Origin: Escherichia coli
GTDB taxonomy: Bacteria; Pseudomonadota; Gammaproteobacteria; Enterobacterales; Enterobacteriaceae
DNA: 64,000 nt
Strand: one strand, 5' to 3'
NCBI RefSeq assembly: GCF_024298765.1
Contig: NZ_CP101211.1
Both the position numbers and the translations under genes were made by a program. A model generated the notes under the pieces. That model did no database searches. It worked only from the letters and a program-made list of their open reading frames with translations, and was not told the DNA's origin. Shown in pieces: positions 25,679 through 64,000 of the stretch (positions are counted from its first letter, which is position 1; every line of letters begins with the position of its first letter).

Positions 25679-26302
25679 ACACCGCAATTCAGAAAAAAGT
25701 TTCAGTTAGTCACATTACGAATAACCCGGCTTACTTTCGCATGTGCGTTCCCCTGCATGTTAAAGTAAAGCCCTCCGGGCAGACTCGTCGCCCACTTAAC
25801 GCCTCGCTCAGCCATACGCTTCGGTGTTTCCAGCCAACCACGAGGAATATTGCCCGGAACGTTACCGATAACCCGTCAAATGCATGCTGCTACCCGGATG
25901 CCGCCGGGAATATCGCATTTGGATTCAACAATATGCATGACCTCAGATAAAGCACCATGCCGCTGGACATGATCGCCAATGTGCAACTCGATAGGAGAAG
26001 CCATTTCTGAATCTGACTTCATATCTGTCCACCTTTAATTTAGAAACCGTCTAAATTACCAAATTAGTTAATCCAACAACATCTGTATCACAACCATCAA
26101 TTTGTTTTTGTTGGGTCTATATCGTAGAAACAAGTGAATAATGAATACACTCGTTAATACAGACAACCGGAAATGAATGACTACCTGATTATCTCAGCGG
26201 TATATGCTAAGCCGTTAATATTGCCATTCTCTGGTGGAACCACTGCTAAATGAATAAACCGTTTGTCGCTTCAAACCACTTTATCAAAACCGTTAACTTG
26301 CA

Positions 26303-27553
26303 TTAAGTCCGATACAGTTCGGCGAGCTCATCCAGCATGGGGTTACTCTTATATCCCGGTGCGGCCGTAAAAAGGTTTCGGGAAATCGCCAGCCACTCCA
26401 TGATTTTGTCCGTCGCCAGCCAACGTCTGCCAAGTCGCTCGGCTGCGATGGGGACTTTATGCAAGCCAGCGAAGGGATCTACAACAAGATCTCCCGGCTC
26501 TGTCAAAAACTCAATCAGAAACGCTGCAAGCCTGGTAGGAGACGTTGCACCGTGCAGCGGAAAACCGAGCTCGCGGGCAATGGAATGGCAAAATCTCGTA
26601 TCAGCGCAGCTATTGCCGTAAAACAAAGTATTCTTGGGGATCGTTCCTTCTGTTTTATTTCCAAAGGAACCGCTTTTAAGCTGGTACGCCCCATCACCAT
26701 AAAAGGTCGTGCGATTTTCACCGCCTGCTGCCTGCAATTTTAGATGCTGGTCTGAATGCGGTTGTAGTACACGTAAGTTGTTTGAACGAACCTTACTCGC
26801 ATCATTGGTAAACCACAGCACAGGCTCATACGATGAGCAGAGCTGCACCCGTTGCTTACATGCCCAGTGCGTTGGCGATGGGGGCTTACTGCGATTCACC
26901 CACTGAAGCCTGTCCATGAGCTCAAGCCCCAGCTTGTCACATAATGCCAGTGTCAGACGCTCCAGATACAGAGAACGTGAAGGCCTACCCCTATTAAAGC
27001 TATCTTGAGTGATATTCAATGCCACACTTGCGCCCGGTACAAGCTGTTTCACGATCGGTTCGAGGATACGCAGAAGCCAGTCAATATAAGCCTGCTCGCC
27101 ACGCCCCCCTCCGTGCCCGTAGTCTCTTGAATTTCGAAGGAGGTAAGGTGGCGAGGTCAGGCAAAGATGAATTTGCTCGGTGATATTGCTGAAGAAGGCA
27201 TAGGCGTTTCCAAAAACCGATGCCCCAAGAGAAGTTGAGAAACCGACAACACAGAGCTTTTCCCATGACTCATGCAGGTTTGTTTTCGTCTTAGAGGCGT
27301 ATCTCCAGACGCCCCGTTTTTCTGGAACGCGTTCGATGACCCCGGCCTGACGGAGAGTCTGCTGAAACCAGCGAACCTTATGTTTGACGCCGCTGGTTCT
27401 GGTTTTATCTGACCCAAATTCTTTCAGTTCGTGCAATTCGGCATCCGACATGCCAGTTTTACGCTGCACTTCGCGATAAAGCTCGTCGTTGGTCAACGGC
27501 GATTCGGAGGCAGCGTAGATATGCGCAATTAAGTCCGTATTAATCGTACTCAT
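26303..27553 (-). CDS. orphan DNA methyltransferase, N4/N6 beta-class (416 aa)
   Basis: TSPPY catalytic motif and C-terminal DPFAG...ATD SAM-binding motif; no adjacent restriction endonuclease recognised. Confidence 0.8.
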   Translation of the reverse strand: MSTINTDLIAHIYAASESPLTNDELYREVQRKTGMSDAELHELKEFGSDKTRTSGVKHKVRWFQQTLRQAGVIERVPEKRGVWRYASKTKTNLHESWEKLCVVGFSTSLGASVFGNAYAFFSNITEQIHLCLTSPPYLLRNSRDYGHGGGRGEQAYIDWLLRILEPIVKQLVPGASVALNITQDSFNRGRPSRSLYLERLTLALCDKLGLELMDRLQWVNRSKPPSPTHWACKQRVQLCSSYEPVLWFTNDASKVRSNNLRVLQPHSDQHLKLQAAGGENRTTFYGDGAYQLKSGSFGNKTEGTIPKNTLFYGNSCADTRFCHSIARELGFPLHGATSPTRLAAFLIEFLTEPGDLVVDPFAGLHKVPIAAERLGRRWLATDKIMEWLAISRNLFTAAPGYKSNPMLDELAELYRT

Positions 27554-38204: not shown

Positions 38205-38284
38205 CCAAGGCCAAATCTGAATTGTCCTGTTTAAGTAACCAACCCGCTGCCGCCAGGCGGGTAAATCCTCTTAATGGAGTTTTA

Positions 38285-39046
38285 ATGCAAATCTCAACTG
38301 AAGTTCTGAACGTCTTATCTCGCTGCCGTGCTGAAGGGAACTTTCTTTTCCTGGCCGACCAGCTCGACCGCAGCATTTATGTTAAGACAAACAAAGTGCT
38401 GGAAGCTGCCGGTGGCAAATGGAACCGAAAAGAGCAGGCACATATTTTTACGGCGGATGCAGCTGAGCGTATCGAGCAAATCATTCTGACAGGTTCGGTC
38501 GACATCCCACGTGATTTGTTCAATTTCTTCCCTACCCCTGAGAATTTAGTCACAGATATGGTTCTACGCGCTGAACCAGCTGCCGGGGAACGTGTTCTGG
38601 AGCCTGAGTTTGGTGATGGCCGCATTCTGAAAGCCTTAAAACTGGCGGCTCCGGATGCATTGATTACCGGGATCGAATTGAACGATGAGCGATTCCTTGC
38701 AGTGAAGAACGATAGTGTCCTTAGCACAGGGGCCGAGCTGGTGCATACCGACTTTCTTGGGTACCAGCCCGATGAAACTTTTGATGTTATCGTTATGAAT
38801 CCACCATTCCTTAAACGCTCTGACGTTAAACATGTCATGCATGCCATCGCAATGCTCGCTAAGCGAGGTCGCTTACAGGCCATTCTGTCAGCTGGGGTAT
38901 TGTTCCGGGAAGACACACTGACAAAAGCGCTCAGGGAGCGAGTCAAACAACTTGGCGGACAAATTTCGCCTCTTCCGGATGATACATTTAGGGAGTCCGG
39001 AACAAAGGTCAAAACAGCCCGCCTTGAAATTGATCTTCGCCGCTAA
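38285..39046 (+). CDS. orphan DNA methyltransferase (NPPF motif, likely N6-adenine)
   Basis: VIVMNPPF catalytic motif; start taken at the internal ATG with GGAG RBS. Confidence 0.7.
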   Translation: MQISTEVLNVLSRCRAEGNFLFLADQLDRSIYVKTNKVLEAAGGKWNRKEQAHIFTADAAERIEQIILTGSVDIPRDLFNFFPTPENLVTDMVLRAEPAAGERVLEPEFGDGRILKALKLAAPDALITGIELNDERFLAVKNDSVLSTGAELVHTDFLGYQPDETFDVIVMNPPFLKRSDVKHVMHAIAMLAKRGRLQAILSAGVLFREDTLTKALRERVKQLGGQISPLPDDTFRESGTKVKTARLEIDLRR

Positions 39047-40499: not shown

Positions 40500-42920
40500 A
40501 TGAAACATCTCGCTTTTATTACTGCTGTAGCCGGACTCGGTATGTCTGTTCAGGCCCCAGCTCAGATATATGAATCGGCCTTTAAGGACACGAACGGTAT
40601 TGAGATCCACGCCCCGTCTTCTCGTCTTATGCTTAATCCGGCATCACCGGTAACTTTGACACTTATTTCAGGTCTTGATCGTTTCGTTAATGTCAAAGTC
40701 ACGAAAGACACTGGAACTGTCATTCTTAATACTACGACTACACGGACGGGTGTATCAGACCGACTAACAGCTGCTGACGGTAGTGAGTTCTACGGCAAAA
40801 AAGTAACTTTGCCTGCTTTGGGTGAAGGCAAATTTGTCGTTCAGATAAACGTGTTAGATCTCAATCAGAAGCCTGTAGCGACCTATAACTATAACTGGCT
40901 AATTGATGTCACCCCTCCAGCGGCAAATGCTCTTACCGCTAATACTGGTTCTGGCTCTACCGCTGGTGACGTGTGGAAGCTTGGATTAGAGGCAACGGGG
41001 CAGTATGACTTCACCTCTTCGGGCGTAAGTGATGCAAATGGTATTGATAAGGGCCTAATATATATTTACAGGCAGGACGGTAGCCTCTACAGCACTACAC
41101 AGATGCAGTATGACGTATCCGGCCAAAAGATGTACCACACTTACTCTAAGAATTCAGTTAAGGGAACCGGAATACCAGACAGCAACCTGGATGAAGACTT
41201 TACTGCAAAAGTTGTTATCTTCGATAACGCAGGTAATAGCCGAACGCTGCCAACTCAAAAATTTCGCTACGACAACACGCTGGGTGAGATGACACTGTGG
41301 GCCGTTCATGATCCAAATACGTCTTCCAGCGTCGTACCCGGGGTTTCTAATTATCCGGCTTACAAAGCCGGTATGGTCGTTAACGAAAACCCTATTCGAT
41401 TAGTCTACCGGATCCCAAAATCTAACTACCGTGCTTATTCAGAAGGTGGGCTTCAGTTCATCAATCAATATTCCGCCCCCAAAGAGATAGCTGTAGACAG
41501 CACTTATGCTTATGTTGAAATGACTCTTCCCTATGGCTCAATTAATGGGGATATGGCTCGTATGGCGAACTTTGGCCAGTGGGGAGGGTATTATCCGTCA
41601 TACAGCCTCGTTCTAAACCCATCTGCAAACCAAACGCCTGCATTTGCGGGTACCTGGGTAGATTTCCTCGATGATAAGGGGAACTGGGTTAAGTGGAAGG
41701 ATTTTGAGAGTGTGGCTTCATCACGACTGCCAATTAAAATTTCCCGACTTCGTTTTAACGTTGAAGCCCGGCCCTTTGCACAGGAGATCGGCGGTAAGGC
41801 GACCTGCACCATTCCGGCAGGAAAAACCTCGTGTGAAGCGCCTGAGACGTTTGATATGGCCTTGGGTACCCAGGGCTACAATAGAATCCTTTACTTCGTT
41901 CGCAGCATCAGCAATCCCATTTTGCGGTCTGAGCAATGGATTATGACACGCTGGAACAATAAACAACTGCCGGTAATAAACTCGATATCATATGACGAGA
42001 CTAACAAGCAGCTGGATGTACTGGCGTCACTTGAAGGCGATGGTAACTGGTTCGACTCGGTCTCATTGAGGGAATTTTATCTTTCCGATAAGAACACCGG
42101 TACCCGGATGTCACCAACAGGCGTAATCAAATCTCGTATCTCAGGTAACTACACGATTGCTTATGATTTATCCCGTCAGTCTGAAGGAAAATACAACGTT
42201 GAGGTCAACATCAGGGACTTCTTCCAGAACCAGACCAATAAAACTTTCGGAGAAATTGCTCTGGATAACACTCCTCCGACAGTGGCCATAACATTCGACG
42301 GAAAGCCGGTAAAAGACGATACGGTAGTGTACGGCCTGGAGAACCTCAGGATCGCTCTGGCAGATAATCTGACAACCCCGAGGATAACCCGTCTTCAGCT
42401 CGTAGGTGGCCCCACAGCTGATAACGTTGAGCTTACGTGGTCACCGGCAGGCAAAGATACATACATGCCTGAGTATCCGAGGCTGTTCCCAAATTTCGAA
42501 CCATCTGAAAATTATTCAATTAGCGTAACAGTTGCCGATAGTCAGTCGAATACCAAAACCTATACTCAGAAGTTCAGTTATCTACCGAATAACCTTGTGC
42601 AGTTACATAATCTACGCACATTGTCGGTCAGTTCACCTCTCAAAACGACAGATGGCGTACCACTTGCGTACCTGTCCACTAACGTTCTGCGTAAGACAAA
42701 TGGAGAAATTGCTAAAGGGGTCCAGAACGCAACGCTGACTGTGCGGAAGGATGCAGCCTTCGGTATTAAATTTAATGGGGCACAGGCGGCTCCAGGCGAG
42801 TCAGTTGAGGTGCAAATAGATATGGGCCAGGGGGATAATCTTCTGTTACCCGTTTATCCTTCCGAAAATGGGAAAGTTGGCACCTCAGAATTCATGATTC
42901 AGATCGACGAGTTGAAGTAA
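40500..42920 (+). CDS. secreted Ig-like repeat protein, paralog 2 (806 aa)
   Basis: signal peptide MKHLAFITAVAGLGMSVQA; D-x-T-P-P domain starts; C-terminus ~55% identical to paralog 3 by eye. Confidence 0.7.
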   Translation: MKHLAFITAVAGLGMSVQAPAQIYESAFKDTNGIEIHAPSSRLMLNPASPVTLTLISGLDRFVNVKVTKDTGTVILNTTTTRTGVSDRLTAADGSEFYGKKVTLPALGEGKFVVQINVLDLNQKPVATYNYNWLIDVTPPAANALTANTGSGSTAGDVWKLGLEATGQYDFTSSGVSDANGIDKGLIYIYRQDGSLYSTTQMQYDVSGQKMYHTYSKNSVKGTGIPDSNLDEDFTAKVVIFDNAGNSRTLPTQKFRYDNTLGEMTLWAVHDPNTSSSVVPGVSNYPAYKAGMVVNENPIRLVYRIPKSNYRAYSEGGLQFINQYSAPKEIAVDSTYAYVEMTLPYGSINGDMARMANFGQWGGYYPSYSLVLNPSANQTPAFAGTWVDFLDDKGNWVKWKDFESVASSRLPIKISRLRFNVEARPFAQEIGGKATCTIPAGKTSCEAPETFDMALGTQGYNRILYFVRSISNPILRSEQWIMTRWNNKQLPVINSISYDETNKQLDVLASLEGDGNWFDSVSLREFYLSDKNTGTRMSPTGVIKSRISGNYTIAYDLSRQSEGKYNVEVNIRDFFQNQTNKTFGEIALDNTPPTVAITFDGKPVKDDTVVYGLENLRIALADNLTTPRITRLQLVGGPTADNVELTWSPAGKDTYMPEYPRLFPNFEPSENYSISVTVADSQSNTKTYTQKFSYLPNNLVQLHNLRTLSVSSPLKTTDGVPLAYLSTNVLRKTNGEIAKGVQNATLTVRKDAAFGIKFNGAQAAPGESVEVQIDMGQGDNLLLPVYPSENGKVGTSEFMIQIDELK

Positions 42921-43074: not shown

Positions 43075-43377
43075 ACTCGTTGATTACGACAATGGGAGTG
43101 AGTGTCGAACCCCTTGAGTAAGGATACTTGGTAAATATACAGCCCCGGGGATTCTCTTCCTTCAACCGGGGATGACAACGGGAGTGAGTCCGGCAACTCA
43201 CACCTGTTGTCACTTCTCTGACATATCGTCATACGAGCTTACTCAAGCGCATCCACAAAGATGGGATCGTTTTGAATCTAAACTGGTACTGGTTAGCCAG
43301 TCACTTGCATCTACTCCCCCGTCGATATTTAAGTGACAATTGTAGTGATCTGCAATACTGGTGTCTCAGAAACACTG
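43075..43377. repeat. iteron-like palindrome repeats (left part of array split by IS)
   Basis: units such as ATGACAACGGGAGTGAGT...ACTCACACCTGTTGTCAC. Confidence 0.6.
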
Positions 43378-43421
43378 TGTTGTGGTCAAGTTTTTTTGGA
43401 CACGCCGATCAGATGGTAGGG

Positions 43422-44662
<1,241 letters not shown>

Positions 44663-44680
44663 TTAAATTTGACCACAACA

Positions 44681-46312
44681 CTGACGACGGTAGAGACTCA
44701 ATACCCTAACCCCTGACAACAGAAGTGAGCTTAGAGGTGTTACGCTGCTGTCACCTAATGCTTGGGAATTGCCTGACTCACAACCATTGTCATCCGGAGC
44801 TACTGATTAACGTTGAACCGCTGGACTTTAATGACAGTGGTAGTGATGGATAGGCTCATTTCCATTGTCGTCATTTTATCGGACAAGCCTCTTCGTCCTA
44901 CAGGTTTAAGCTGACAATGGTAGTGATTGGATGATCTCACTACTGTTGTCACTCAGTTCTTTGAGCGGACCCTTCCCTCGGTTGGTCGGCATTAACAACG
45001 GTAGTGACTCGATTGGCTCACTGCCATTGTCATCGTGTAAATGACGTACCTTATCAGCTCAGCTGAAAGCAATGACAACGGTAGTGACTCTAATTGCTCA
45101 CTGCCATTGTCGTCGTGTCTATTGAGAGCCTTATCAGTGCACCTGAAAAGCAATGACAACGGTAGTGACTCTAATTGCTCACTGCCATTGTCGTCGTGTC
45201 TATTGAGAGCCTTATCAGTGCACCTGAAAAGCAATGACAACGGTAGTGATTCTAATGGCTCACTACCGTTGTCACCGTGTGTATTGAGAGGATGGTCCAC
45301 TTAACTGGACGTATATGACAATGGTAGTGACTTTAATAGCTCACTACCATTGTCGGTGTGTGAATTGAGAGGATGAGCAGCTCAGCTGTACGTCCATGAC
45401 AATGGTAATGACTTAATGAGCTCACTACCGTTGTCACCCTGTTAATTAAGAGGCTCATCTGCTCTTCTGGAAGGCTATGACAACGGAAGTGACTTGCTGG
45501 GCTCACTGCCATTGTCGCCGTATGAATTGAGAGGATCATCCGCTCTTCTGGATGGCAATGACAACGGTAATGACTTAATAGGCTCACTACCATTGTCACC
45601 CTGTGAATTGAGAGGATGATCTGCTTAACCAGACGGCCATGACAACGGTAGTGACTTTCTGGGCTCAATACCGTTGTCACCCTGTGAGTTAAGAGGTTGA
45701 CCCGCTCTACTGGACGGCCATGACAACGGTAGTCACTTTCTGGGCTCACTACCGTTGTCACCCTGTGAGTTAAGAGGTTGACCCGCTCTACTGGACGGCC
45801 ATGACAACGGTAGTCACTTTCTGGGCTCACTACCGTTGTCGCCATATAGAATGAGAGGAGCATCAGCTCAACTGAACGGCAATGACTACAGTAATGAGCT
45901 GGATGAAGCATAACCATTGACATCTGGCCCAACCGGAAGCCGTATTCGCCAATCCAATCGAGATTCACAATGGCCGTGACTCGCCGCATTAAGTTCCGGT
46001 GTCCTCCCAAAGCTGAACGCACACTCGGAGGACAATGACAATGCCAGTAAGGTACACATCATTACCATTGTCACTATAGCTACCAGAGAAGCCGGGATTT
46101 GAATGTCGATGGTAGTGAGTGGGTCAACTCACTGCCATTGTCACCCCGTTACGATATTTTCCGTTGGATGTACTGGCCAATGAAGTAAAGCGTAGAAACC
46201 GGGTGTTAACAGGTGACTCAGGAGAAAGCGTTGAATTTCGCAATCTCGATCTACATAGGGTGGTAGAGAACAATGACAACGGTAATGACTTTTGACTCAT
46301 TACCGTTGACGT
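44681..46312. repeat. tandem array of about 20 x 81-bp repeats, each with an inverted pair of iteron-like 15-mers (TGACAACGGTAGTGA / TCACTACCGTTGTCA)
   Basis: exact 81-bp periodicity visible (e.g. 45069, 45150, 45231); adjacent units identical or near-identical. Confidence 0.85.
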
Positions 46313-46385
46313 GAAAGAGCGGGCTGGGACTAACGAAAATCGAAGAAGTAATTTAGCACCCGGAGCCTAAACCGCCGGGTTAACT

Positions 46386-47474
46386 TTAGCTGGCGTTGCT
46401 GTTCTTTTTCTGGCTTCGAAGACTACGAATATAGCGCAGTTCTTCAGCGGTTAAATCATGGACGGTAAGAACATCATCGCCGTCAATCGGGTCAGCTGGT
46501 GGGCATAACTCACCTTCTAAAACAGAAGACCCTGAGTTCTCTTCTTCATCTTCAACCACTTCTAAAGGAGGCTGAGTATTGTTCAAATTCAGATCGGGAT
46601 CCCGCTTATGAATCTGGAAGTATACTTTTCCGTCTTTCTTAATTTCGGTGTACTTGAGGTATCCTATCGATGCCAACTCTTCAAGAGCCTTTCTCACGGT
46701 AGCATTCTGACTATTTGCTCGTGTTTTGAGGTTCAGACGATTTTTCAGCCGAGTAAGGGATATCGGTATAGGATTTGGCGGTAATGACTCTATGAACGTA
46801 TAGAGAGCCTGGGCGCTTTCCTTCTTGGCCAACTCCTTAATTGCCTTCAGCTGCATCAAAACCTTATGATCGTATTGATAGAGCTCGAAAATCTTAGGAT
46901 CAACCTGAAGGACAACCTGATCTGATTCCGGGTCTAACAGGGCAGACTGTACCAGATGCGTTGTATAGACTTTGGACGAGTTATTACTGGTGAACGACAA
47001 GGTAACGGATGCTAACCTGCGTAAGGAGGCGTCTATACGTTTTCTGGACGCTGTAGATGAGCGATAATTTTCAGGCGTACATAGCTTGAGGAATTCAGTG
47101 AATTTTAAGCTTATCGTGTCATTGTTAATCGGATGATTGGCATAGGTTCGAATGATGCCCATCCACGTCTTAAAATCTACTGACATATTAAGACGCTCAC
47201 CGACAATTGAAATATTGGTGAACCCCTCGCTCTCCATTAAAGAGAGCGTCTGTAACTCTTTCGTTGCGTCAAAGCCAACCGTTTTATATTCCCGATTTTG
47301 ACGCCCCACACTCTTTGGTGATGGGACGAACAGCCCGAGCCGCATCAAAGCAATAGACTGCACCGTACGGTTGCTGTTAGGACGCAAAATGATGTCTTTA
47401 CCTGATTCTTTCTCTCTAACAGAGAAAGCCCTGGTGACCAGGTCCTGCTGCTCAGTATCTTTCTCTTTAGTCAT
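46386..47474 (-). CDS. repA: RepFIB-family replication initiator RepA (362 aa)
   Basis: ESAQALYTFIESLP.P.PISL.RL..RLNLK and N-terminal NTVQ..ALMRLG.FVP match RepFIB/P1-type RepA; flanked by iterons. Confidence 0.85.
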   Translation of the reverse strand: MTKEKDTEQQDLVTRAFSVREKESGKDIILRPNSNRTVQSIALMRLGLFVPSPKSVGRQNREYKTVGFDATKELQTLSLMESEGFTNISIVGERLNMSVDFKTWMGIIRTYANHPINNDTISLKFTEFLKLCTPENYRSSTASRKRIDASLRRLASVTLSFTSNNSSKVYTTHLVQSALLDPESDQVVLQVDPKIFELYQYDHKVLMQLKAIKELAKKESAQALYTFIESLPPNPIPISLTRLKNRLNLKTRANSQNATVRKALEELASIGYLKYTEIKKDGKVYFQIHKRDPDLNLNNTQPPLEVVEDEEENSGSSVLEGELCPPADPIDGDDVLTVHDLTAEELRYIRSLRSQKKNSNAS

Positions 47475-47599
47475 AATAAGTTATCACTGAATGTGTAAAC
47501 AGATTGGTGAATAGTAAGCCCCAGCGAACTCTATGTCACTGGATGGATCATTGTGATGATCCATATCTGTGCATAAGTTCTACCTAAAAAAACGACTCC

Positions 47600-48250
47600 A
47601 CTCATTAAAACTTGGCAAAAACTCTTTGCATACAATGACCTGCAACTCTTATCAACAACGGATCAGATCAAGTTAAAAAGATCTAATGAAAAGTCACTAC
47701 TATTGTCGCTCTGATCACTACTGATGTCAAAAAACTCATTACCAACGTTATAATAATCACTACTAATGTCAAAATAATCACTACTGTTGTCACTGATCAC
47801 GTCTCAGGCCTTGTGCCGTCTGGCCTGGAGGCAGCGGGGATCTCTTTTGATCTATCAGGAACACTAAGGTACTAATTATTGGAACTACCTTGTGGAAAAT
47901 GGGGATAAATAAATGCTTAGTTCTTATACAGGTCTCAACTTGCCTCCCTGATAAAAACTGTCGTCAAAGCTAAATCACAGCCACAGGCATTTTCGGTGGA
48001 TAAATTTTTGAGAAATAGAAGCATACATGCAGACTCGTGTCGCAAGTAATTGAAAGTAATGATTTATTTAAATAATGCGAGTCACCTTACCTCACAGTGG
48101 AAGTTTAAGTCTAACCTCACTACCATTGTCACTTAAAATCATTACCAACGTCGAAATAGTCTCTACCATTGTCTTTTAAGTCACTCCCGTTGTCACTTAT
48201 GTCGCTACTGTTGTCAGTGACAATGCTCCAGCCCAGTAACCATGCGGCCT
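47600..48250. other. putative iteron-type replication origin
   Basis: two sets of ~5 direct iterons (TCACTACYRTTGTCA, ~21-23 bp spacing) at 47693-47800 and 48116-48228; GATC cluster at 47661-47690; AT-rich spacer. Confidence 0.6.
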
Positions 48251-48452
48251 ACAGCGTACCGGGATCTTCTTTGTACTCTCTGGCACCTTTGGGATCATTT
48301 ATTGGATCTACATGAGGGATAAAATCTTTTGACGATTTCGTAGTGCAGTTATACCAGCGACTTAGCAAGACAAAAGCTGCAATTTAGTGACGAGTTACTA
48401 GTCTGCCCAACAAGAGCAATGCAGAGAAGATATGTGGTGAAATGACCATGGT

Positions 48453-48486
48453 AGTGAGTCTAATCACTACCATGGTCCGCAGTAAG
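48453..48486. promoter_or_regulatory. perfect inverted repeat GACCATGGTAGTGA-N6-TCACTACCATGGTC (iteron-like palindrome)
   Basis: 14-bp arms; sequence related to iterons. Confidence 0.45.
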
Positions 48487-48581
48487 CGTTACTTACGCAA
48501 TGAACGTCGGACTGATTTGCAACAACATGGGCTACGGCGCATCAGAAGGCGGCCGTTGTGCTTCAGCAAAACAGCCCTGCT

Positions 48582-51038
48582 TTATTTTAATTCTTCAATG
48601 TTAATCATGAACTCAGATCTGCCAGTAAGGCCGGATACAGCAGGGAAAATAGGAAAGCTACGGCTGTCCCCGAGCCCCAAATCCAGTTGAAGCTCTTTGC
48701 TTTCACCTGGCATCGCAGAAACGCCATTTACAGTCACGCCGAATGCAGCGTCCTTACGGACAGTAAGCACTGCGTCCTGAAGCCCTGTAGCGATTGAACC
48801 ATCCTTTTTACGCAGCTGGCTGGCATACAGAACAGCCAGAGCAGTATTGTCAGATGTTTTGAGAGAAGCATTGACAGCTAAGGTTTTCAGATTCTCTAGC
48901 CTGACGAGATTGTTTGGAAGGTAGTTAAATTCGACTGAGCTTTCTTTAACGTTGTTCATCTCATCTTTGGCCTGAACTGTGAGAGTGTATGTTTCGCCTT
49001 CATTAAGAGACGGAAAGATCTTGGGATAATTAGGTGCATACAGGTTGTTTCCCAGATTCACCCAAGACAATTCCACCGCATCAGAAACAGGGCCACCGCG
49101 AAGAGTCATACGGCTTAAGGATGGTTTAGTTAGAGCATCGGTGAGCTGTATACGGACGTTCTCCAGCCCATATACTGTTACGTTTTTGCTGATCGGTTTT
49201 CCTTCGTAGCTAATACTTACAGATGGTGCTGTATTATCAACGACAACTGTTTGATAAGGGAGGTTACCGGTATTGTTGAATGTATCTTGGGCATTAATCA
49301 CCACGTTATAACTGCCTTCTGGTACCTCTTTCATGTTGAACTCATACGTGTAGTTCCCAGACGCCATATTTCTACCTGTTTGTTTGCCGGTTACGCTTAT
49401 TTCTGCGTTGTTACGGTTTTTATCTGACAACCAAACTCGATTTACATAAACATGGTCGAAATATGAACCATCTCCAGGTTGATTCACGTAAACCTGGAGA
49501 ATGTTGGTGGTTTCATTGTAATCAAATCCAGTGACGGAGGGACCCAGTGTATGCCAGGCTATATTCTCCCATATAGGGGCAAAGAAGGTTGCTTCGGTGG
49601 TTGACCTTACTTCATAGCCACTATGAAGATAACCGGTAGTGCCATTTATAATATCCTGGGGCAAAGAGACGGTACAGGTTGTTGAGCCAGCTGGAATACT
49701 GCATGTTGCTCCGCCAGTGATTTTTTGATCATATGGCCTGGCCTGTACATTGAATCGGATATTAGTAAGTTTTATAGGCATATCAGATGCCTTGAACAGG
49801 TTCCAGTTTACGCTGTTGAACCATGTTCCATCAGCCTTTTGTCGTTCTATGGGTGAACTTCCCCAAGCCGGACTCTTTACAGAGGCAGGATCCCAGTTGA
49901 GCCAGCTGGCATACTGACCAAGATCTCCTCCAGACCATTGATATGTATTCACAGGTCTATAGTAGTTTCCATCTAAGGCACCCTGTGGCAGCTTAACTTC
50001 CACGTAGACATAGGTGGCATCTTCGGAAAGGACCTGTACTCCGCCATAGTTATTGGTAATGCTCATGCCACCATTTCGATATGGCTTCCAGTTAGTTCTT
50101 GGGATACGTATAACCAACTTGTAGGGGTTTTCCAGCACTGTAAGGCCTCGTTTAAACGGGACGTATCCCGAAGAAATGCCGGGTACAACACTGGTGCTTA
50201 CACGTGAGTCATGAACTGCAAATGGCGTAAATTCTCCCATTTGATCGTCATATAAAAACCGCTGGGGAGGAATGTTAAGCGTATTTCCTGCCAGGTCCGT
50301 AACGATGAAATTGAAGGTGAATTCTTCATCAAGATCACTTGAGGGCATGCCAGCCTGGGTGTTCATATCTTTAATCCACGGATAGAACGCACGTTTATTG
50401 GCTGTGTCATAACTCAGGTTATTGTCGGAGACCACAGAACCATTACTTCGTTTAATGACAAGACGGATCTTGTCAATTCCACTAGCATCCTCAATACCGT
50501 CTGCAAATATAGAAAACTGGCCACTACCGCCTCGGCCCAACTCCCAAAGTGGCCCAGAAAGTACCATGTCGTAACCTGCGTTTTGACTCGGATAAATACT
50601 CTTATAGCGTGGAGGAGTTGTATCAACGATGAAATGATAAGTAGATGTGCTCACTACAGTCTGGCGAATATCCAGAGTTTCATTGACTACAGTAAAGGTC
50701 CCTTCTCCGAGCGCCGGTAGAACCATATCCTTTCCATAGTATTCTGTTCCATCGGCAGCAACGATACGATCTGCAACGCTCGTTTTGGTCGAGACGGAGG
50801 AATACATAACCTTTTTATCGCTGTCTCGTGTGACCGTCACTCGCTCGTACCGATCAAGACCCGATATCAAGTTCAGAGTCAAAACACCAGCGGGATTAAG
50901 ATATGTTTGTGTTGCAGGTTTGATATTCCGAACAGCCTTATTGGTATCTGTAAATGAGTAGCTAAATACCTGAGCATGTGCCGAAGATACAGTAGCAAGG
51001 GCAGTTGCAACCATGCAGCCAATTAGAGTTTTACGCAT
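48582..51038 (-). CDS. secreted Ig-like repeat protein, paralog 3 (818 aa)
   Basis: signal peptide MRKTLIGCMVATALATVSSAHA; D-x-T-P-P domain starts; two palindrome copies upstream. Confidence 0.7.
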   Translation of the reverse strand: MRKTLIGCMVATALATVSSAHAQVFSYSFTDTNKAVRNIKPATQTYLNPAGVLTLNLISGLDRYERVTVTRDSDKKVMYSSVSTKTSVADRIVAADGTEYYGKDMVLPALGEGTFTVVNETLDIRQTVVSTSTYHFIVDTTPPRYKSIYPSQNAGYDMVLSGPLWELGRGGSGQFSIFADGIEDASGIDKIRLVIKRSNGSVVSDNNLSYDTANKRAFYPWIKDMNTQAGMPSSDLDEEFTFNFIVTDLAGNTLNIPPQRFLYDDQMGEFTPFAVHDSRVSTSVVPGISSGYVPFKRGLTVLENPYKLVIRIPRTNWKPYRNGGMSITNNYGGVQVLSEDATYVYVEVKLPQGALDGNYYRPVNTYQWSGGDLGQYASWLNWDPASVKSPAWGSSPIERQKADGTWFNSVNWNLFKASDMPIKLTNIRFNVQARPYDQKITGGATCSIPAGSTTCTVSLPQDIINGTTGYLHSGYEVRSTTEATFFAPIWENIAWHTLGPSVTGFDYNETTNILQVYVNQPGDGSYFDHVYVNRVWLSDKNRNNAEISVTGKQTGRNMASGNYTYEFNMKEVPEGSYNVVINAQDTFNNTGNLPYQTVVVDNTAPSVSISYEGKPISKNVTVYGLENVRIQLTDALTKPSLSRMTLRGGPVSDAVELSWVNLGNNLYAPNYPKIFPSLNEGETYTLTVQAKDEMNNVKESSVEFNYLPNNLVRLENLKTLAVNASLKTSDNTALAVLYASQLRKKDGSIATGLQDAVLTVRKDAAFGVTVNGVSAMPGESKELQLDLGLGDSRSFPIFPAVSGLTGRSEFMINIEELK

Positions 51039-58094: not shown

Positions 58095-59258
58095 TTATTC
58101 TGCGTCCGGCTGTGGGTCAGTATCCTGATCGGTCTCTTCCCCTGCCTTCTTAGCATTTTTTTTACGTGGGTATTTTGGCTTCTCACCATTAAGTTTTGCC
58201 TGACGATTCTCCGCACGGCGAAGCTGCTTGTTCTCTGATTCTGTGATCTCTTTTGAAAGATTTCTCAACATCTCCAGAGTACTGCGGTTCAACGTAATGT
58301 TGATTTCTTCGTCAGCACTTGAATCTGTCAGCTCCGGCAATTCAATATCCCCCAGTTTCTGTAATAAGCTGGTGGTGATGAGTTTGACGCCTTCTACGGC
58401 TTTTGTGGCAATAACCGGCGGAATCCGTGCTGGCTTGAAGTCTGAAGGTCTGACTCGTACCTGACCATGTTGGGTTTTTTTCACCGTGATGCCATTCGCA
58501 TCGGCCTGCTCAAGTTCTGCGATCATCTTCTTGATACGTGAAATTGCTTCTGTTTCGCCGAGCTCATCGATCAGTGAAAGCACGTTAACATACGAAATAG
58601 CGTCAGCATGAATCCATTTCTTGATAACAACAGAACAGGTTGTCAGGCGGATAAGAGAACTGATGGTCGTCGGGCTTTTATTTTCACGTTGAGCAATTCG
58701 TTCGAGTGACCAGCCAGCAAGAGAATGTAGGCGACGATAGGACTCGCCAAGCGCAACAGGAGAAAGCGCAAGACCACGGTTACCATCAATGGTCGCGAGC
58801 TCACAGCCAATTTCATCTTCTTTAATCTCAACGCAAAGGATTGTGATGTCATGATCTTCATCACATGCCATCATTGCGGCTTTTAAACGGCAGTGCCCCT
58901 GGCGAACAAAAGGTACCCCATCAATGACACGTACTCGGATAGGGTCTACATAGTCACCTCGAATGTAGGCATTCTTGATGTTGTAGATGTGTTCTTCAAC
59001 CTCAGGGAGCTTATAGTAATCGTCACCCATTCCCATTTCGCGGGAGTTGAAGCCTGGCGTGACCTGAATTACTGAAGGGTGGATAGCCCATGCTTTCTGG
59101 TCACTTACTTCAGTACAAAGTTCAGGGTTTGCATCACGGAACTGTTTAAGCCCAGTGACGTAACGGCCTGTGCCAGTAACTACTGAAAAGGCAACATGGG
59201 CCGTTTTAAAGACCTTGTCATTAGCTTGCTGTGTAGGTTCTGTCAGTAAAACACTCAT
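58095..59258 (-). CDS. ParB-like nuclease domain protein (387 aa)
   Basis: GVPFVRQGHCRLKAA ParB box; paralog of 5063..6247. Confidence 0.75.
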   Translation of the reverse strand: MSVLLTEPTQQANDKVFKTAHVAFSVVTGTGRYVTGLKQFRDANPELCTEVSDQKAWAIHPSVIQVTPGFNSREMGMGDDYYKLPEVEEHIYNIKNAYIRGDYVDPIRVRVIDGVPFVRQGHCRLKAAMMACDEDHDITILCVEIKEDEIGCELATIDGNRGLALSPVALGESYRRLHSLAGWSLERIAQRENKSPTTISSLIRLTTCSVVIKKWIHADAISYVNVLSLIDELGETEAISRIKKMIAELEQADANGITVKKTQHGQVRVRPSDFKPARIPPVIATKAVEGVKLITTSLLQKLGDIELPELTDSSADEEINITLNRSTLEMLRNLSKEITESENKQLRRAENRQAKLNGEKPKYPRKKNAKKAGEETDQDTDPQPDAE

Positions 59259-59606: not shown

Positions 59607-60440
59607 TTGACTCGACATCTCAGACACATGCCGATAATCAAATGGGCTGGTGGAAAAACGAAACTGATGCCTTTCATCAGCCATCACTACCCACACGATC
59701 ATAGTTGCCGGTGGGTAGAACCCTTTATAGGCGGTGGTGCCGTTTTTCTGAACATGTTTGCACAAAATGCATTGCTTGCAGATAGCAATCCAGACTTGAT
59801 CAACCTATACAGGACTATTCAAAGACAGAAAACTAACTTTATAAATCAGGTCCAAAACTTGGCGGATAAAACCTTTGTCGAAAAGGACTACTATGAGATG
59901 AGGGACCGTTTCAACAAAACCTGTATTTCTGGTCAATCGCTTCAAAGAGCGGCTTTGTTTTACTCCCTGAATCGCCTGGGCTATAACGGTATGTGCCGCT
60001 ATAACTCAGAAAGAATCTATTCAGTGCCGTGGGGGAAACATACAGAACTGAAGCTTGACCTCAATAAAATAGACTACCTTTCATTTCGTCTTTCAGGTAT
60101 TGAACTGATCACCGCTGGTTTTGAGGAGACTCTGGCCGCAACCGGTGAAGGAGATCAGATTTACTGTGATCCGCCATATGACAAAACAAGCAAAACTAGT
60201 TTTGTCAGTTACGATGGTAAACCGTTCAGCCAAAGCGACCACGTGCTGTTAGCAAATATGCTCGTTGACGCTCACAGAAAAGGCGCTGCTGTTGCGATAT
60301 CAAATAGCCTGACATCATTCACTTTGGGCCTCTATGAAGAGCGTGGATTCGTCATACACAGACTCAGCGCTTACCGATCCGTAGGAAGTAAGCCGAATAC
60401 ACGGAAAACGGAAACAGAAATACTGGCCGTGCTGAAATAG
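59607..60440 (+). CDS. Dam-family N6-adenine DNA methyltransferase (orphan)
   Basis: IKWAGGK N-terminal motif, EPF.GGGAVFLN, NRLGYNGMCRYN and DPPY catalytic motif as in E. coli Dam; true start may be the ATG at 59628. Confidence 0.85.
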   Translation: MTRHLRHMPIIKWAGGKTKLMPFISHHYPHDHSCRWVEPFIGGGAVFLNMFAQNALLADSNPDLINLYRTIQRQKTNFINQVQNLADKTFVEKDYYEMRDRFNKTCISGQSLQRAALFYSLNRLGYNGMCRYNSERIYSVPWGKHTELKLDLNKIDYLSFRLSGIELITAGFEETLAATGEGDQIYCDPPYDKTSKTSFVSYDGKPFSQSDHVLLANMLVDAHRKGAAVAISNSLTSFTLGLYEERGFVIHRLSAYRSVGSKPNTRKTETEILAVLK

Positions 60441-60448
60441 AGTAAATT

Positions 60449-61114
60449 CTAATCAACTGGGCTAATCCATTCCTCAAAAGTTAATACCTCAGGGTAAGTT
60501 CGTTGAACATAAGGTATAAACTGAAGCTCTTCTATTCTCCGGTCGCCCCTCTTTCCTTCGCAAATAAATGAAATGAGTCCTTGCTGAGAAAGGCCAGTAA
60601 GGACGCTCATAAGTCTTATATTTAGACTTTTAAGCTGTAAGTCGTTATTAATGTCCTCCACTTTATGAGAGCTCTGGCCTGAACGTTTAAGATACTCGTA
60701 AACCATGAAATTCGAATTTCGTCGTTTTAACAATTTTTCGGTTATGCATTCCTGAATGAAGTCGCCAAGAGCATCTAAAAGCGGACTGAGAACTACCGGG
60801 AAAGTTAATGTGTAACTTTGAGAAGTTTTAGACAAAGTGAATGAGTTTAGAAAGCTAAAGTTTAGTCTCTTTTTTGAATATGGAACATAAGCGACAAGAG
60901 TAGTCGACATAACAGTAAGTAAAGCTTCAAGATGGTTCACTGTTATTAAAGTGGCTTTATCTGTATTTCTAAGATTATGGAAATCAATAAACGCTACTCT
61001 TGAACGGCTAAGCCAATCTTGTACTTTAATGTCGATAGAAAATTGCGAGATATGATTTGAACATTCATTTTGGGTGATAGGGCATGCAGACGAAAGATGG
61101 TTATGGATTATCAT
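60449..61114 (-). CDS. hypothetical protein (start placed at internal Met so that the palindrome is upstream)
   Basis: long ORF 60449..61306; upstream palindrome at 61202 suggests the shorter start; start uncertain. Confidence 0.35.
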   Translation of the reverse strand: MIIHNHLSSACPITQNECSNHISQFSIDIKVQDWLSRSRVAFIDFHNLRNTDKATLITVNHLEALLTVMSTTLVAYVPYSKKRLNFSFLNSFTLSKTSQSYTLTFPVVLSPLLDALGDFIQECITEKLLKRRNSNFMVYEYLKRSGQSSHKVEDINNDLQLKSLNIRLMSVLTGLSQQGLISFICEGKRGDRRIEELQFIPYVQRTYPEVLTFEEWISPVD

Positions 61115-61201
61115 GCATAGCACAAAAAAAGGAAAACGGCAGGCTGTGGGGCATTGAAAACCGGTTAAAGAAAGCTTAGACGTTTCATATGCGCTTACCG
61201 G

Positions 61202-61214
61202 AAAAGTAACTTTT
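61202..61214. promoter_or_regulatory. AAAAGTAACTTTT palindrome copy
   Basis: CCGGAAAAGTAACTTTTC. Confidence 0.45.
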
Positions 61215-61537
61215 CTTAACGTTGGCTTTGACGATGTTCTTGCATTTTTACAAATGAAACCGAGACCCAGATCATTGTGCATTTTAAAGTCCATCTCCAT
61301 CATCACCTTTTAGCCTTAACTGTATGGTATTGGTATACAAAAAATTAAAATTATAATTAATAAGATTATCATTTTTTTACAATAGAAAAGGTTCTGATAG
61401 AGGAGAATTTAAATGTAAAAGATTTATACTCGCAGATCTTTATGAGGGATAAAACCCATTGCGTAAGCAACAATATTACGTGAGTGAGTCCTAACGACAG
61501 TTAAAGTCTTGGCTCTATATTTAAGCAGCAAAAACAT

Positions 61538-63729: not shown

Positions 63730-63960
63730 CTTATCATTGTTTTCAACAGGATAGATCAATTCTTTAGATCACTAAAGATCAATAGAGTTCAAGTAAAGAT
63801 CACGGCATCTTTAACTCATTGATTATAGTGACTTTATGAAAGGATCCGGCATTCGGATGCATGCGAAAAGCATTTGAATGAATAAGGAAGGCATTTACTG
63901 GAATGCTTATGGCATTTAGGTTAATGCGTAAAAAGCATTTGCAAGAATATGTTATAAACA
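63730..63960. repeat. GATC-rich (AGATCA x4) and GCATTT-repeat region
   Basis: four AGATCA within ~60 bp, then five GCATTT in ~90 bp; upstream of ParB-like gene. Confidence 0.4.
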
Positions 63961-64000
63961 GTTTGCCAAATGAAAATCTTATCACCGACGAGTTAAGTTA

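What the first reader, a model, noticed from the sequence alone, without database searches (positions are those of the whole stretch)
47600..48490. Putative origin with two iteron sets, GATC clustering, and a plasmid-encoded Dam-like methylase
Upstream of repA there are two groups of ~5 direct iterons flanking an AT-rich segment, with several GATC sites clustered at 47661-47690 and within iterons. P1/RepFIB-type origins are known to depend on Dam methylation of GATC sites. This element additionally encodes its own Dam-family methylase (59607..60440), which could make origin function or leading-region expression independent of host Dam. A perfect 14-bp-arm iteron-like palindrome at 48453..48486 is a candidate RepA autoregulatory operator.
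Basis: partly seen in the sequence, partly recalled or inferred. Interest (0 to 1): 0.5.

Follow-up and report, generated by a model that had tools for sequence, protein, structure and literature searches.

The report
IncHI2 plasmid RepHI2A replication origin
This is the origin region of the known RepHI2A replicon of IncHI2 resistance plasmids, built like the phage P1 plasmid origin but with the origin core present twice, and its link to the plasmid's own Dam methylase is plausible but untested.

Summary
Two sets of five 21-bp-spaced iterons, a GATC excess, a perfect 14-bp-arm palindrome (really at 48444-48477) and a Dam-family gene (59607-60440) are all present. The window is IncHI2 plasmid backbone, 100% identical to pAPEC-O1-R and many other records. 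The gene at 46386-47474 (minus strand) is repHI2, 41% identical to P1 RepA.

The two iteron sets are not simply flanks of an AT-rich segment. They belong to two tandem copies, 424 bp apart, of a complete P1-oriR-type core: DnaA boxes, GATC-bearing heptamers, a GC-rich spacer and five iterons. Both copies align in register with the annotated P1 origin. Both are conserved at 69-93% in a sister lineage whose neutral sites are only 41% identical. Twin cores also occur in SSU5-like phage-plasmids and a Pantoea plasmid.

The palindrome lies 970 bp from the rep start and is absent from the sister lineage, so it is unlikely to be the autoregulatory operator.

dam is a core, already annotated IncHI2 gene. 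P7 likewise carries dam beside a P1-type origin. A role for it in replication is untested. The replicon is known; the twin-core layout is the one possibly undescribed detail.

The parts
43088..46310 (.). Iteron field 3' of repHI2 (incA-like control region). It includes an 81-bp tandem array at 44995-45897 (11.2 copies, each an inverted pair TGACAACGGTAGTGA-n10-TCACTACCGTTGTCA) and further pairs. It is interrupted by an IS3-family element at 43377-44681.
   Evidence: literature: twelve 80-81 bp iterons about 500 bp from repHI2 in R478 (PMC8490738)
46386..47474 (-). repHI2 (RepHI2A initiator, 362 aa)
   Evidence: 100% identical to the gene annotated 'IncHI-type plasmid replication initiator protein RepHI2'; 41% identical to P1 RepA, E=2e-73; 55% identical to SSU5 RepA
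47511..47539 (-). Promoter-like site GTGACA-17-TACTAT, 37 bp upstream of the rep ATG (candidate rep promoter)
   Evidence: consensus match only, 9 of 12; the number of sites found is no more than in shuffles
47543..47564 (.). Inverted repeat ATGGATCAT-TGTG-ATGATCCAT carrying two GATC 12 bp apart. Both GATC are conserved in the sister lineage.
47568..47576 (-). DnaA-box-like TTATGCACA
   Evidence: conserved in pRHB35-C21_2
47649..47657 (+). DnaA-box-like TTATCAACA
   Evidence: conserved in pRHB35-C21_2
47661..47683 (.). Two of the three are conserved. It has no counterpart in P1 oriR.
47691..47795 (-). Iteron set 1: five 21-bp units (proximal core). Contains a promoter-like match TTGACA-17-GACAAT at 47730-47702.
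   Evidence: 84% identical to the sister lineage
47798..47836 (.). GC-rich spacer 1 (69% GC)
47837..47883 (-). Heptamer zone 1 (TCCAATAA...AGATCCC) with GATC at 47839 and 47849. It aligns with the annotated Dam sites of P1 oriR.
   Evidence: 83% conserved
47891..47908 (-). Tandem DnaA boxes TTATCCCCA + TTTTCCACA, in register with the P1 tandem DnaA boxes
   Evidence: 93% conserved
47995..48003 (-). DnaA-box-like TTATCCACC between the cores
48044..48084 (.). AT-rich stretch of lowest duplex stability beside iteron set 2. Its composition, but not its sequence, is conserved in the sister lineage (alternative unwinding site).
48114..48219 (-). Iteron set 2: five 21/22-bp units (distal core)
   Evidence: 75% conserved
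48221..48260 (.). GC-rich spacer 2 (60% GC)
48261..48310 (-). Heptamer zone 2 with GATC at 48263, 48293 and 48305. It is 79-85% identical to the origin core ahead of rep in IncHI1B-type replicons.
   Evidence: 82% conserved
48314..48322 (-). Degenerate DnaA box (TTATCCCTC, 2 mismatches) at the position of the P1 boxes
48444..48477 (.). Perfect palindrome of two near-consensus iterons (14-bp arms, 6-bp spacer)
   Evidence: not conserved in the sister lineage
59607..60440 (+). Dam-family DNA adenine methyltransferase gene (277 aa), with no recognisable restriction partner next to it
63740..64000 (+). Origin core of the plasmid's second replicon (TTTTCAACA box, four GATC heptamers, GCATTT-type repeats). 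Its rep gene starts just beyond the window end.

Best explanation
The 1.1-kb gap between repHI2 and the neighbouring Ig-like gene is the origin of the RepHI2A replicon of an IncHI2 plasmid. It is a P1-oriR-type iteron origin whose core is present twice in tandem.

Shown here. The initiator is a P1 RepA homologue. Each core has the P1 order, read toward rep: DnaA box(es), then heptamers with GATC ending in AGATCCC, then a GC-rich spacer, then five iterons at 21-bp spacing. Both cores are under purifying selection. A large field of inverted iteron pairs lies 3' of rep where P1 has incA.

Inferred from what is established for P1. RepHI2 monomers load on the five iterons and host DnaA on its boxes. 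The duplex opens in the AT-rich heptamer zone, or possibly in the AT-rich stretch at 48044-48084. Initiation needs the heptamer GATCs to be fully methylated by a Dam-type enzyme. After firing, hemimethylated GATC pairs 10-12 bp apart are bound by SeqA, which delays re-initiation. The 3' iteron field, and probably the upstream palindrome, titrate or handcuff RepHI2 to set copy number.

Unknown. Which of the two cores fires, or whether both do. The plasmid's own Dam-family enzyme most likely methylates GATC and would be redundant with host Dam in its usual hosts. A replication role for it is possible but not shown.
For: Identity of the element: 100% match to IncHI2 plasmids with repHI2 annotated. 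RepHI2 is 41% identical to P1 RepA, E=2e-73.

Both modules align in register with K02380.1, whose DnaA site, four Dam sites, incC iterons, repA and incA are annotated. The motif TCCAATAA..AGATCCC occurs exactly twice in the window and in every relative examined.

DnaA-box matches: 5 of the window's 15 fall in this 1.1 kb.

Purifying selection, compared with pRHB35-C21_2: iterons 84/75% identical, spacers 69/75%, heptamer zones 83/82%, tandem DnaA boxes 93%. By contrast, fourfold-degenerate sites of rep are 41.5% identical and the inter-core linkers are at shuffle level. 8 of 12 GATC are retained.

Family-wide: every iteron array detected in 54 of 73 viral-contig relatives has 2-6 GATC within 130 bp upstream.

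Twin cores recur in SSU5, a Pantoea plasmid and 11 viral contigs.

Dam: D12-class, TIGR00571. The best solved relatives are the GATC enzymes E. coli Dam and DpnM. By my own numbering of E. coli Dam read against the alignment, K9, Y119, N120, R124 and P134 are conserved.
Against: No experiment here shows initiation at either core, RepHI2 binding, or Dam dependence of this replicon.

The cores carry fewer GATC heptamers than P1 (2 and 3 against 4-5 in P1). The distal core has only a degenerate DnaA box.

The promoter-like matches are no more numerous than in shuffled sequence.

The primary paper on RepHI2A (Page et al. 2001) could not be read. The limits of the minimal replicon are therefore unknown to me. 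Secondary literature emphasises the 81-bp repeats rather than these cores.
Confidence: 0.85

Rival explanations
1. The plasmid-encoded Dam frees the origin (or leading-region expression) from host Dam, and the palindrome at about 48450-48480 is the operator through which RepA represses its own gene.
For: dam is a core IncHI2 gene: about 1110 plasmid records at >=95% identity, close to the number carrying repHI2. It lies between the plasmid's two P1-type origins, 11 kb from one and 3.3 kb from the other. The sister lineage with the same twin-core origin carries a different Dam-family gene, 33% identical, although its RepA is 88% identical. P7 has dam 5 kb from repA. The palindrome arms are near-consensus iterons.
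Against: All recorded hosts are Enterobacterales, which I take from general knowledge to be Dam+, so the gene is redundant for maintenance there. Relatives with the same GATC-bearing cores were not checked for dam, so co-occurrence is only anecdotal; about 3.5% of all plasmid records have a Dam homologue. The palindrome is 970 bp from the rep ATG with two origin cores in between, is absent from the sister lineage (35% identity, shuffle level), and no promoter-like site lies beside it. No tra or oriT genes are in the window.
Confidence: 0.15
2. Only one core is the origin. The other is a regulatory copy: either a decoy or handcuffing partner, or, for the proximal one, mainly the rep promoter/operator, as the incC iterons are in P1.
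For: The best promoter-like match (10 of 12) lies inside iteron set 1, as the rep promoter does in the P1 incC iterons. The distal core is the one most like single-core relatives (79-85% identical) and has more GATC. In SSU5-like elements the proximal core has decayed heptamers (3 against 6 GATC). The two linkers between the cores kept their length (78/77 and 106/106 bp) while losing all sequence similarity, which suggests the cores work as one spaced assembly.
Against: A pure decoy or operator needs only iterons. Yet the spacer, heptamers and GATCs of both cores are conserved far above the neutral level, and the proximal core has the better DnaA boxes. The plasmid already has a large control field 3' of rep.
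Confidence: 0.45
3. The Dam-family gene has nothing to do with replication. It is an orphan methylase serving establishment or anti-restriction (protection from GATC-cutting enzymes in new hosts) or gene regulation.
For: It matches PADLOC Type II and orphan methyltransferase models about equally. No restriction enzyme is recognisable beside it. It sits among ParB-like, DUF4942, HNH and other methyltransferase genes typical of plasmid maintenance and anti-defence backbones. Homologues are common in phages with no P1-type origin.
Against: Nothing here excludes a double role. The co-occurrence with GATC-dependent origin types in IncHI2, the sister lineage and P7 is suggestive.
Confidence: 0.5

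Closest known systems
P1 plasmid origin oriR with repA, incC and incA (GenBank K02380.1)
   Same: Homologous initiator (41% identical). Same order and register of tandem DnaA boxes, GATC heptamers ending AGATCCC, a GC-rich spacer and five iterons at 21-bp spacing ahead of rep. A second iteron cluster lies after rep.
   Different: The core is duplicated 424 bp apart. Each core has fewer GATC heptamers (2 and 3). The gap between iterons and rep is 216 bp rather than 57 bp and carries extra GATCs and DnaA boxes. The control field after rep is about 2 kb of inverted iteron pairs in 81-bp repeats instead of nine single iterons. RepHI2 has an extra acidic C-terminal tail of about 65 aa.
RepHI2A replicon of R478 (Page, Whelan & Colleran 2001; Gilmour et al. 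2004)
   Same: The same replicon. The sequence is 100% identical to IncHI2 records, and the 80-81-bp repeats about 500 bp from repHI2 match the description quoted in PMC8490738.
   Different: None expected. I could not read the primary paper, so I cannot say whether the two upstream cores and their GATCs were described. PMC8490738 places the long repeats next to the initiation codon, whereas here they lie beyond the stop codon.
Replication regions of SSU5-like phage-plasmids and a Pantoea agglomerans plasmid
   Same: RepA 50-55% identical. Two tandem complete cores ahead of rep, each with five 21-bp iterons.
   Different: Different iteron sequence (AACCACTATAGAGAG type). Core spacing is 271-389 bp in the SSU5-like contigs (375 bp in SSU5 itself). 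The better DnaA boxes are on the distal core, the reverse of IncHI2.
RepFIB / REPI of pColV-K30 and IncHI1B-type replicons
   Same: Same initiator family and a single P1-type core with GATCs. The IncHI1B-type cores are 79-85% identical to the distal IncHI2 core over 65-85 bp. A Dam role in REPI is indicated by the title of Gammie & Crosa 1991.
   Different: One core only in the examples read.
Phage P7/P1 dam gene
   Same: A replicon with a Dam-site-bearing P1-type origin that also carries its own Dam-family gene a few kb away (P7: repA 64334-65116, dam 70184-70975).
   Different: Only 38% identical to the IncHI2 enzyme. In P1 the gene is known, from my own recollection, chiefly for methylating the pac site during lytic growth rather than for plasmid replication.

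Membership tests
P1 oriR-type iteron origin | Initiator homologous to P1 RepA encoded immediately downstream | tested here: met
   41% identity over 266 aa, E=2e-73; tblastn hits to P1, P7 and SSU5 RepA. No Pfam or NCBIfam model matches it.
P1 oriR-type iteron origin | Five direct iterons, about 19-21 bp, at two-helical-turn (21-bp) spacing, all in one orientation | tested here: met
   Two such sets, 47691-47795 and 48114-48219, aligned in register with the incC iterons.
P1 oriR-type iteron origin | GC-rich spacer between the iterons and the heptamer zone | tested here: met
   69% and 60% GC against 46% for the window; aligned with the P1 spacer.
P1 oriR-type iteron origin | Cluster of GATC-containing heptamer repeats (Dam sites) beside the spacer | tested here: met
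   GATC at 47839/47849 and at 48263/48293/48305, in the columns of the annotated P1 Dam sites. AGATCCC is invariant in 8 of 8 cores aligned. There are fewer sites than in P1.
P1 oriR-type iteron origin | DnaA boxes at the outer end of the core | tested here: met
   Proximal core: tandem TTATCCCCA + TTTTCCACA (one mismatch each), 93% conserved. Distal core: only TTATCCCTC (two mismatches), so weak there.
P1 oriR-type iteron origin | Second iteron cluster beyond rep acting as copy-control locus (incA) | tested here: inconclusive
   A large iteron field is present at 43088-46310, but as inverted pairs in 81-bp repeats. Its control function was not tested here.
P1 oriR-type iteron origin | rep promoter embedded in the iterons, giving autoregulation | tested here: inconclusive
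   Promoter-like match TTGACA-17-GACAAT inside set 1 and another at 47539-47511, but the count is no higher than in shuffles.
P1 oriR-type iteron origin | Initiation requires Dam-methylated GATC; SeqA binds the hemimethylated core | not testable with these tools
   Needs replication assays in dam and seqA hosts.
P1 oriR-type iteron origin | One core per replicon | tested here: not met
   Two cores 424 bp apart. This makes it a variant architecture, shared with SSU5-like elements.
Dam family (GATC) adenine methyltransferase | D12-class fold with DPPY catalytic motif and N-terminal SAM-binding motif | tested here: met
   PF02086 E=1e-48 over 13-258; TIGR00571 228 bits against a cut-off of 115; DPPY present.
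Dam family (GATC) adenine methyltransferase | GATC specificity | tested here: inconclusive
   The best solved relatives are the GATC enzymes E. coli Dam (E=1e-39) and DpnM (E=2e-36). By my own numbering of E. coli Dam against the alignment, K9, Y119, N120, R124 and P134 are conserved, with L122M, R137K and Y138H. It scores below the E. coli Dam equivalog cut-off (169 against 441 bits). Needs methylome data from a dam host.
Dam family (GATC) adenine methyltransferase | Orphan status (no cognate restriction enzyme) | tested here: inconclusive
   The abutting 285-aa ORF and the ParB-like neighbour have no PADLOC hits, and the 285-aa ORF has no Pfam hit. Absence of a profile hit is not proof.

The most novel reading that the evidence does not exclude
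The RepHI2A origin, like those of SSU5-type phage-plasmids, is a deliberately paired origin. It consists of two complete P1-type cores held at a fixed distance: the linkers are free in sequence but fixed in length. The cores work together, for example as two alternative start sites or as an origin plus a cis-acting partner that loops with it. In this reading, methylation timing by host Dam plus the plasmid's own Dam sets when each becomes available. I could not establish whether this design has been described for iteron plasmids.
Probability: 0.25. Interest if true: 0.55.

Novelty: already known. Interest (0 to 1): 0.3.

Why it matters
IncHI2 plasmids are major carriers of multidrug and colistin resistance, so knowing exactly what their main replicon needs is useful for curing or incompatibility strategies. 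The practical gain here is a precise map of the RepHI2A origin by homology to the best-studied P1 origin. The map says which GATCs, DnaA boxes and iterons to mutate, and it corrects the operator assignment. If the duplicated core proves to be a functional unit, it would add a new regulatory layout to the iteron-plasmid repertoire. A proven replication role for the plasmid Dam would explain why several unrelated Dam genes travel with this origin type.

Tried and rejected
- Primary papers (Page et al. 2001; Abeles & Austin 1987; Abeles et al. 1993) are not held in the library. Their content is cited only from titles or secondary quotations.
- Literature searches linking IncHI2, iterons and Dam found nothing specific. 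One paper merely lists dam as a gene of an R478-like plasmid.
- Rfam scan of 44500-49000: no credible RNA family, so a known antisense-RNA control element in this stretch is unlikely.
- Palindrome as a terminator for the Ig-like gene: rejected. No terminator-like site was called there, and by my reading of the sequence no T-run follows the stem.
- Palindrome as rep operator: rejected on distance and lack of conservation.
- Dam as half of a DpnII/MboI-like restriction system: the abutting 285-aa ORF has no restriction-enzyme, Pfam or PADLOC match.
- GATC sites inside iterons as functional: the two sites (47713, 47795) are not conserved in the sister lineage.
- Whole-window GATC bias: none (229 observed, 247-255 expected), so the enrichment is local.
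- RepHI2 gave no Pfam or NCBIfam hit. Family assignment therefore rests on pairwise and tblastn similarity.
- I did not determine whether the twin cores arose once or several times. The reversed asymmetry of DnaA boxes between IncHI2 and SSU5 hints at independent events.
Full report
**What the window is.** The stretch 45200-48600 is 100% identical to pAPEC-O1-R and to many other IncHI2 plasmids of Escherichia, Salmonella, Enterobacter, Klebsiella and Citrobacter. In these records the gene at 46386-47474 (minus strand) is annotated 'IncHI-type plasmid replication initiator protein RepHI2'. The finding therefore concerns the RepHI2A replicon. According to secondary sources it was cloned from R478 by Page et al. 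2001 and is known for its unusually long 80-81-bp iterons. I could not obtain the primary paper.

**Checking the observation.**
- Upstream of rep, on the window's plus-strand side, lies a 1107-bp non-coding gap (47475-48581).
- It holds five 21-bp units at 47691-47795 and five more at 48114-48219. All are in one orientation, with the core TCACTACNNTTGTC.
- Every match to that core with at most one mismatch in the whole 64 kb falls between 43088 and 48477.
- GATC occurs 12 times in the gap against about 4 expected (P=8e-4). It occurs 8 times in 300 bp from 47558 against 1.07 expected (P=1.7e-5). These are the densest such stretches of the window, while the window as a whole shows no GATC bias.
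- The three sites at 47661, 47666 and 47680 are as stated.
- The ORF at 59607-60440 is a Dam-family enzyme: PF02086, E=1e-48; TIGR00571, 228 bits against a cut-off of 115.

**What the two iteron sets really are.** Aligning 47640-47960 with 48060-48400 shows that the similarity extends beyond the iterons. Each set is followed by a GC-rich stretch, a GGGATCT..TTTG block and TTATTGGA(A/T)CTAC.

RepHI2 is 41% identical to P1 RepA (E=2e-73) and 55% identical to SSU5 RepA. The original P1 record K02380.1 annotates a DnaA site, four Dam sites, the five incC iterons, repA and incA. I aligned the P1 origin with both IncHI2 modules (read toward rep), the two modules of a sister plasmid, two IncHI1B-type replicons and SSU5. 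All eight fall in register: DnaA box(es), (T)AGATCC-type heptamers, an invariant AGATCCC, a GC-rich spacer, then five iterons. The signature TCCA(A/G)TAA...AGATCCC occurs exactly twice in the window, at 47837-47883 and 48261-48306, both on the rep strand. The region is therefore two tandem copies, 424 bp apart, of a complete P1-oriR-type core.

- **Proximal core.** It has abutting DnaA boxes TTATCCCCA and TTTTCCACA at 47891-47908, where P1 has its tandem boxes.
- **Distal core.** It has only a two-mismatch box there.
- **DnaA boxes overall.** Five of the window's 15 one-mismatch DnaA boxes lie in this gap.

**Are both copies functional?** The only close but diverged relative is a clade represented by pRHB35-C21_2. 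Its RepA is 88% identical, and 110 plasmid records fall in the 80-90% identity band. Fourfold-degenerate sites of rep are only 41.5% identical between the two lineages, so neutral sequence is near saturation.

| Segment | Identity to pRHB35-C21_2 |
|---|---|
| Iteron sets 1 / 2 | 84% / 75% |
| GC spacers 1 / 2 | 69% / 75% |
| Heptamer zones 1 / 2 | 83% / 82% |
| Tandem DnaA boxes (proximal core) | 93% |
| Inter-core linkers | 32-36% |

- The two linkers between the cores are indistinguishable from shuffled sequence (z=0.3).
- Eight of the 12 GATCs are retained. The four lost include both sites in or at the edge of iterons.
- Both linkers have kept their length (78 vs 77 bp and 106 vs 106 bp) despite losing all similarity.
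- An AT-rich stretch of lowest duplex stability next to iteron set 2 (48044-48084) is conserved in composition only.

Both cores are thus under selection as whole cores, and their spacing seems constrained.

**Twin cores elsewhere.** They also occur in phage-plasmid SSU5 (period 375 bp), in a Pantoea agglomerans plasmid, and in 11 of 73 viral-contig relatives. Forty-three of the 73 have one core and 19 were not resolved by my detector. P1, two IncHI1B-type replicons, Cronobacter pCDU1 and another Pantoea plasmid have one core. Every detected iteron array has 2-6 GATC in the 130 bp ahead of it.

**The GATC sites.** By homology, the sites corresponding to P1's Dam heptamers are 47839/47849 and 48263/48293/48305. 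It has no P1 counterpart, and two of its three sites are conserved. A further conserved pair, 12 bp apart, sits in an inverted repeat at 47543-47564, just upstream of a promoter-like site 37 bp from the rep ATG. Their role is unknown. Pairs at about one helical turn are what SeqA is reported to need, judging by the title of Brendler & Austin 1999 seen. That P1 replication needs methylated DNA, and that methylation matters for the RepFIB-type REPI replicon, rests here on the titles of Abeles & Austin 1987, Abeles et al. 1993 and Gammie & Crosa 1991 and on the K02380.1 annotation.

**The palindrome.** Its arms are near-consensus iterons, each one mismatch from the core. It lies 970 bp from the rep start with both cores in between. 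It has no promoter-like site beside it and is absent from the sister lineage. In this family the promoter sits in or next to the proximal iterons (P1 annotation). Here the best consensus match is inside set 1, but promoter-like matches are no more frequent than in shuffles. I therefore reject the operator reading. The palindrome most resembles the inverted iteron pairs of the 3' field (spacer 10 bp there, 6 bp here). It is best seen as one more RepHI2 binding site that could titrate the protein or pair with other iteron sites. This is inference.

**The 3' field.** Beyond the rep stop codon lies an 81-bp array (44995-45897, 11.2 copies). Each unit is an inverted iteron pair. More pairs lie on both sides, from 43088 to 46310. 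This is where P1 has incA. In this plasmid an IS3-family element (ISKpn18-like in the collinear record) is inserted in the field.

**The Dam-family gene.**
- Its best solved relatives are E. coli Dam and DpnM, both GATC enzymes. By my own numbering of E. coli Dam against the alignment, K9, Y119, N120, R124 and P134 are conserved, with L122M, R137K and Y138H. GATC specificity is likely but unproven.
- It is core to IncHI2: about 1110 records at >=95% identity. A 70%-identical homologue is found in 281 other records. It is already annotated as dam and mentioned as such in the literature.
- No restriction enzyme is recognisable beside it.
- It lies 3.3 kb from a third P1-type core at 63740-64000, which belongs to the plasmid's second replicon. 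That replicon's rep gene starts just past the window end.
- The sister plasmid carries a different Dam-family gene, 33% identical. P7 has dam 5 kb from repA.

This is suggestive co-occurrence. However, Dam homologues are present in about 3.5% of all plasmid records and in many phages without such origins. All recorded hosts are Enterobacterales, which I take from general knowledge to be Dam+. No tra or oriT genes are in the window, so the leading-region idea cannot be judged.

**Verdict.** The replicon and the dam gene are already known. The one feature I could not find described is the duplicated, spacing-constrained origin core shared with SSU5-like elements. That feature is worth a modest follow-up.

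Noticed in passing
window 63740-64000: A third P1-type origin core: a TTTTCAACA box, four GATC heptamers (TAGATCA, TAGATCA, AAGATCA, AAGATCA), then GCATTT-type repeats. It belongs to the plasmid's second replicon, whose rep ATG lies at about 64013, just beyond the window. It is the second densest GATC cluster of the window.
   Followed up: partly
window 43377-44681: An IS3-family element (ISKpn18-like; orfA 44297-44662, orfB 43422-44300, 39-bp imperfect terminal inverted repeats) is inserted inside the iteron field 3' of repHI2. pAPEC-O1-R is 1387 bp shorter between the Ig-like gene and repHI2, which I read as absence of this element.
   Followed up: partly
window 47913-47990 and 48007-48112 vs L002 3434-3510 and 3527-3632: The two linkers between the origin cores have no detectable similarity to the sister lineage (z=0.3 against shuffles) yet are the same length to within 1 bp (78/77 and 106/106 bp). 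This suggests a spacing constraint.
   Followed up: partly
window 40500-42920 (+) and 48582-51038 (-): The replicon is bracketed by two large secreted Ig-like-domain protein genes (806 and 818 aa). A paper title (PMC6764697) reports that a class of Ig-like proteins is required for IncHI plasmid conjugation. In pAPEC-O1-R the right-hand gene is annotated shorter (661 aa) and an IS5 transposase gene lies just beyond it.
   Followed up: no
window 46386-47474: RepHI2 matches no Pfam-A or NCBIfam model although it is 41% identical to P1 RepA. It also carries an acidic C-terminal extension of about 65 aa that P1 RepA lacks.
   Followed up: partly
window 44995-45897 relative to 46386-47474: [quoted passage not shown] In this sequence they lie 489 bp beyond the stop codon, on the 3' side.
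   Followed up: partly
L092 31750-32571 (NZ_CP057148.1 81750-82571): The sister plasmid with the same twin-core origin carries an unrelated-looking Dam-family gene (33% identical) in a cluster with dnaN, rdgC and ssb. That plasmid also encodes dnaB, dinG, a Tus-like protein and umuDC.
   Followed up: partly
window 58095-59258 (-) and 60449-61306 (-): dam is transcribed divergently from a 387-aa ParB-like protein gene. Its 3' end abuts a 285-aa ORF with no Pfam or PADLOC match. A DUF4942 protein gene lies nearby in the collinear record.
   Followed up: partly
window 38222-39046 (+) and about 26300-27550: Two further methyltransferase-like genes lie on the same backbone. One is a weak class I SAM-methyltransferase match. 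The other is annotated 'site-specific DNA-methyltransferase' in the collinear record NZ_CP074357.1.
   Followed up: no
NZ_CP055676.1 (hit H51): In one E. fergusonii IncHI2 plasmid only positions 47920-48581 of the gap match contiguously, with a second matching place elsewhere in the record. This suggests an insertion in the non-conserved linker between the two cores.
   Followed up: no
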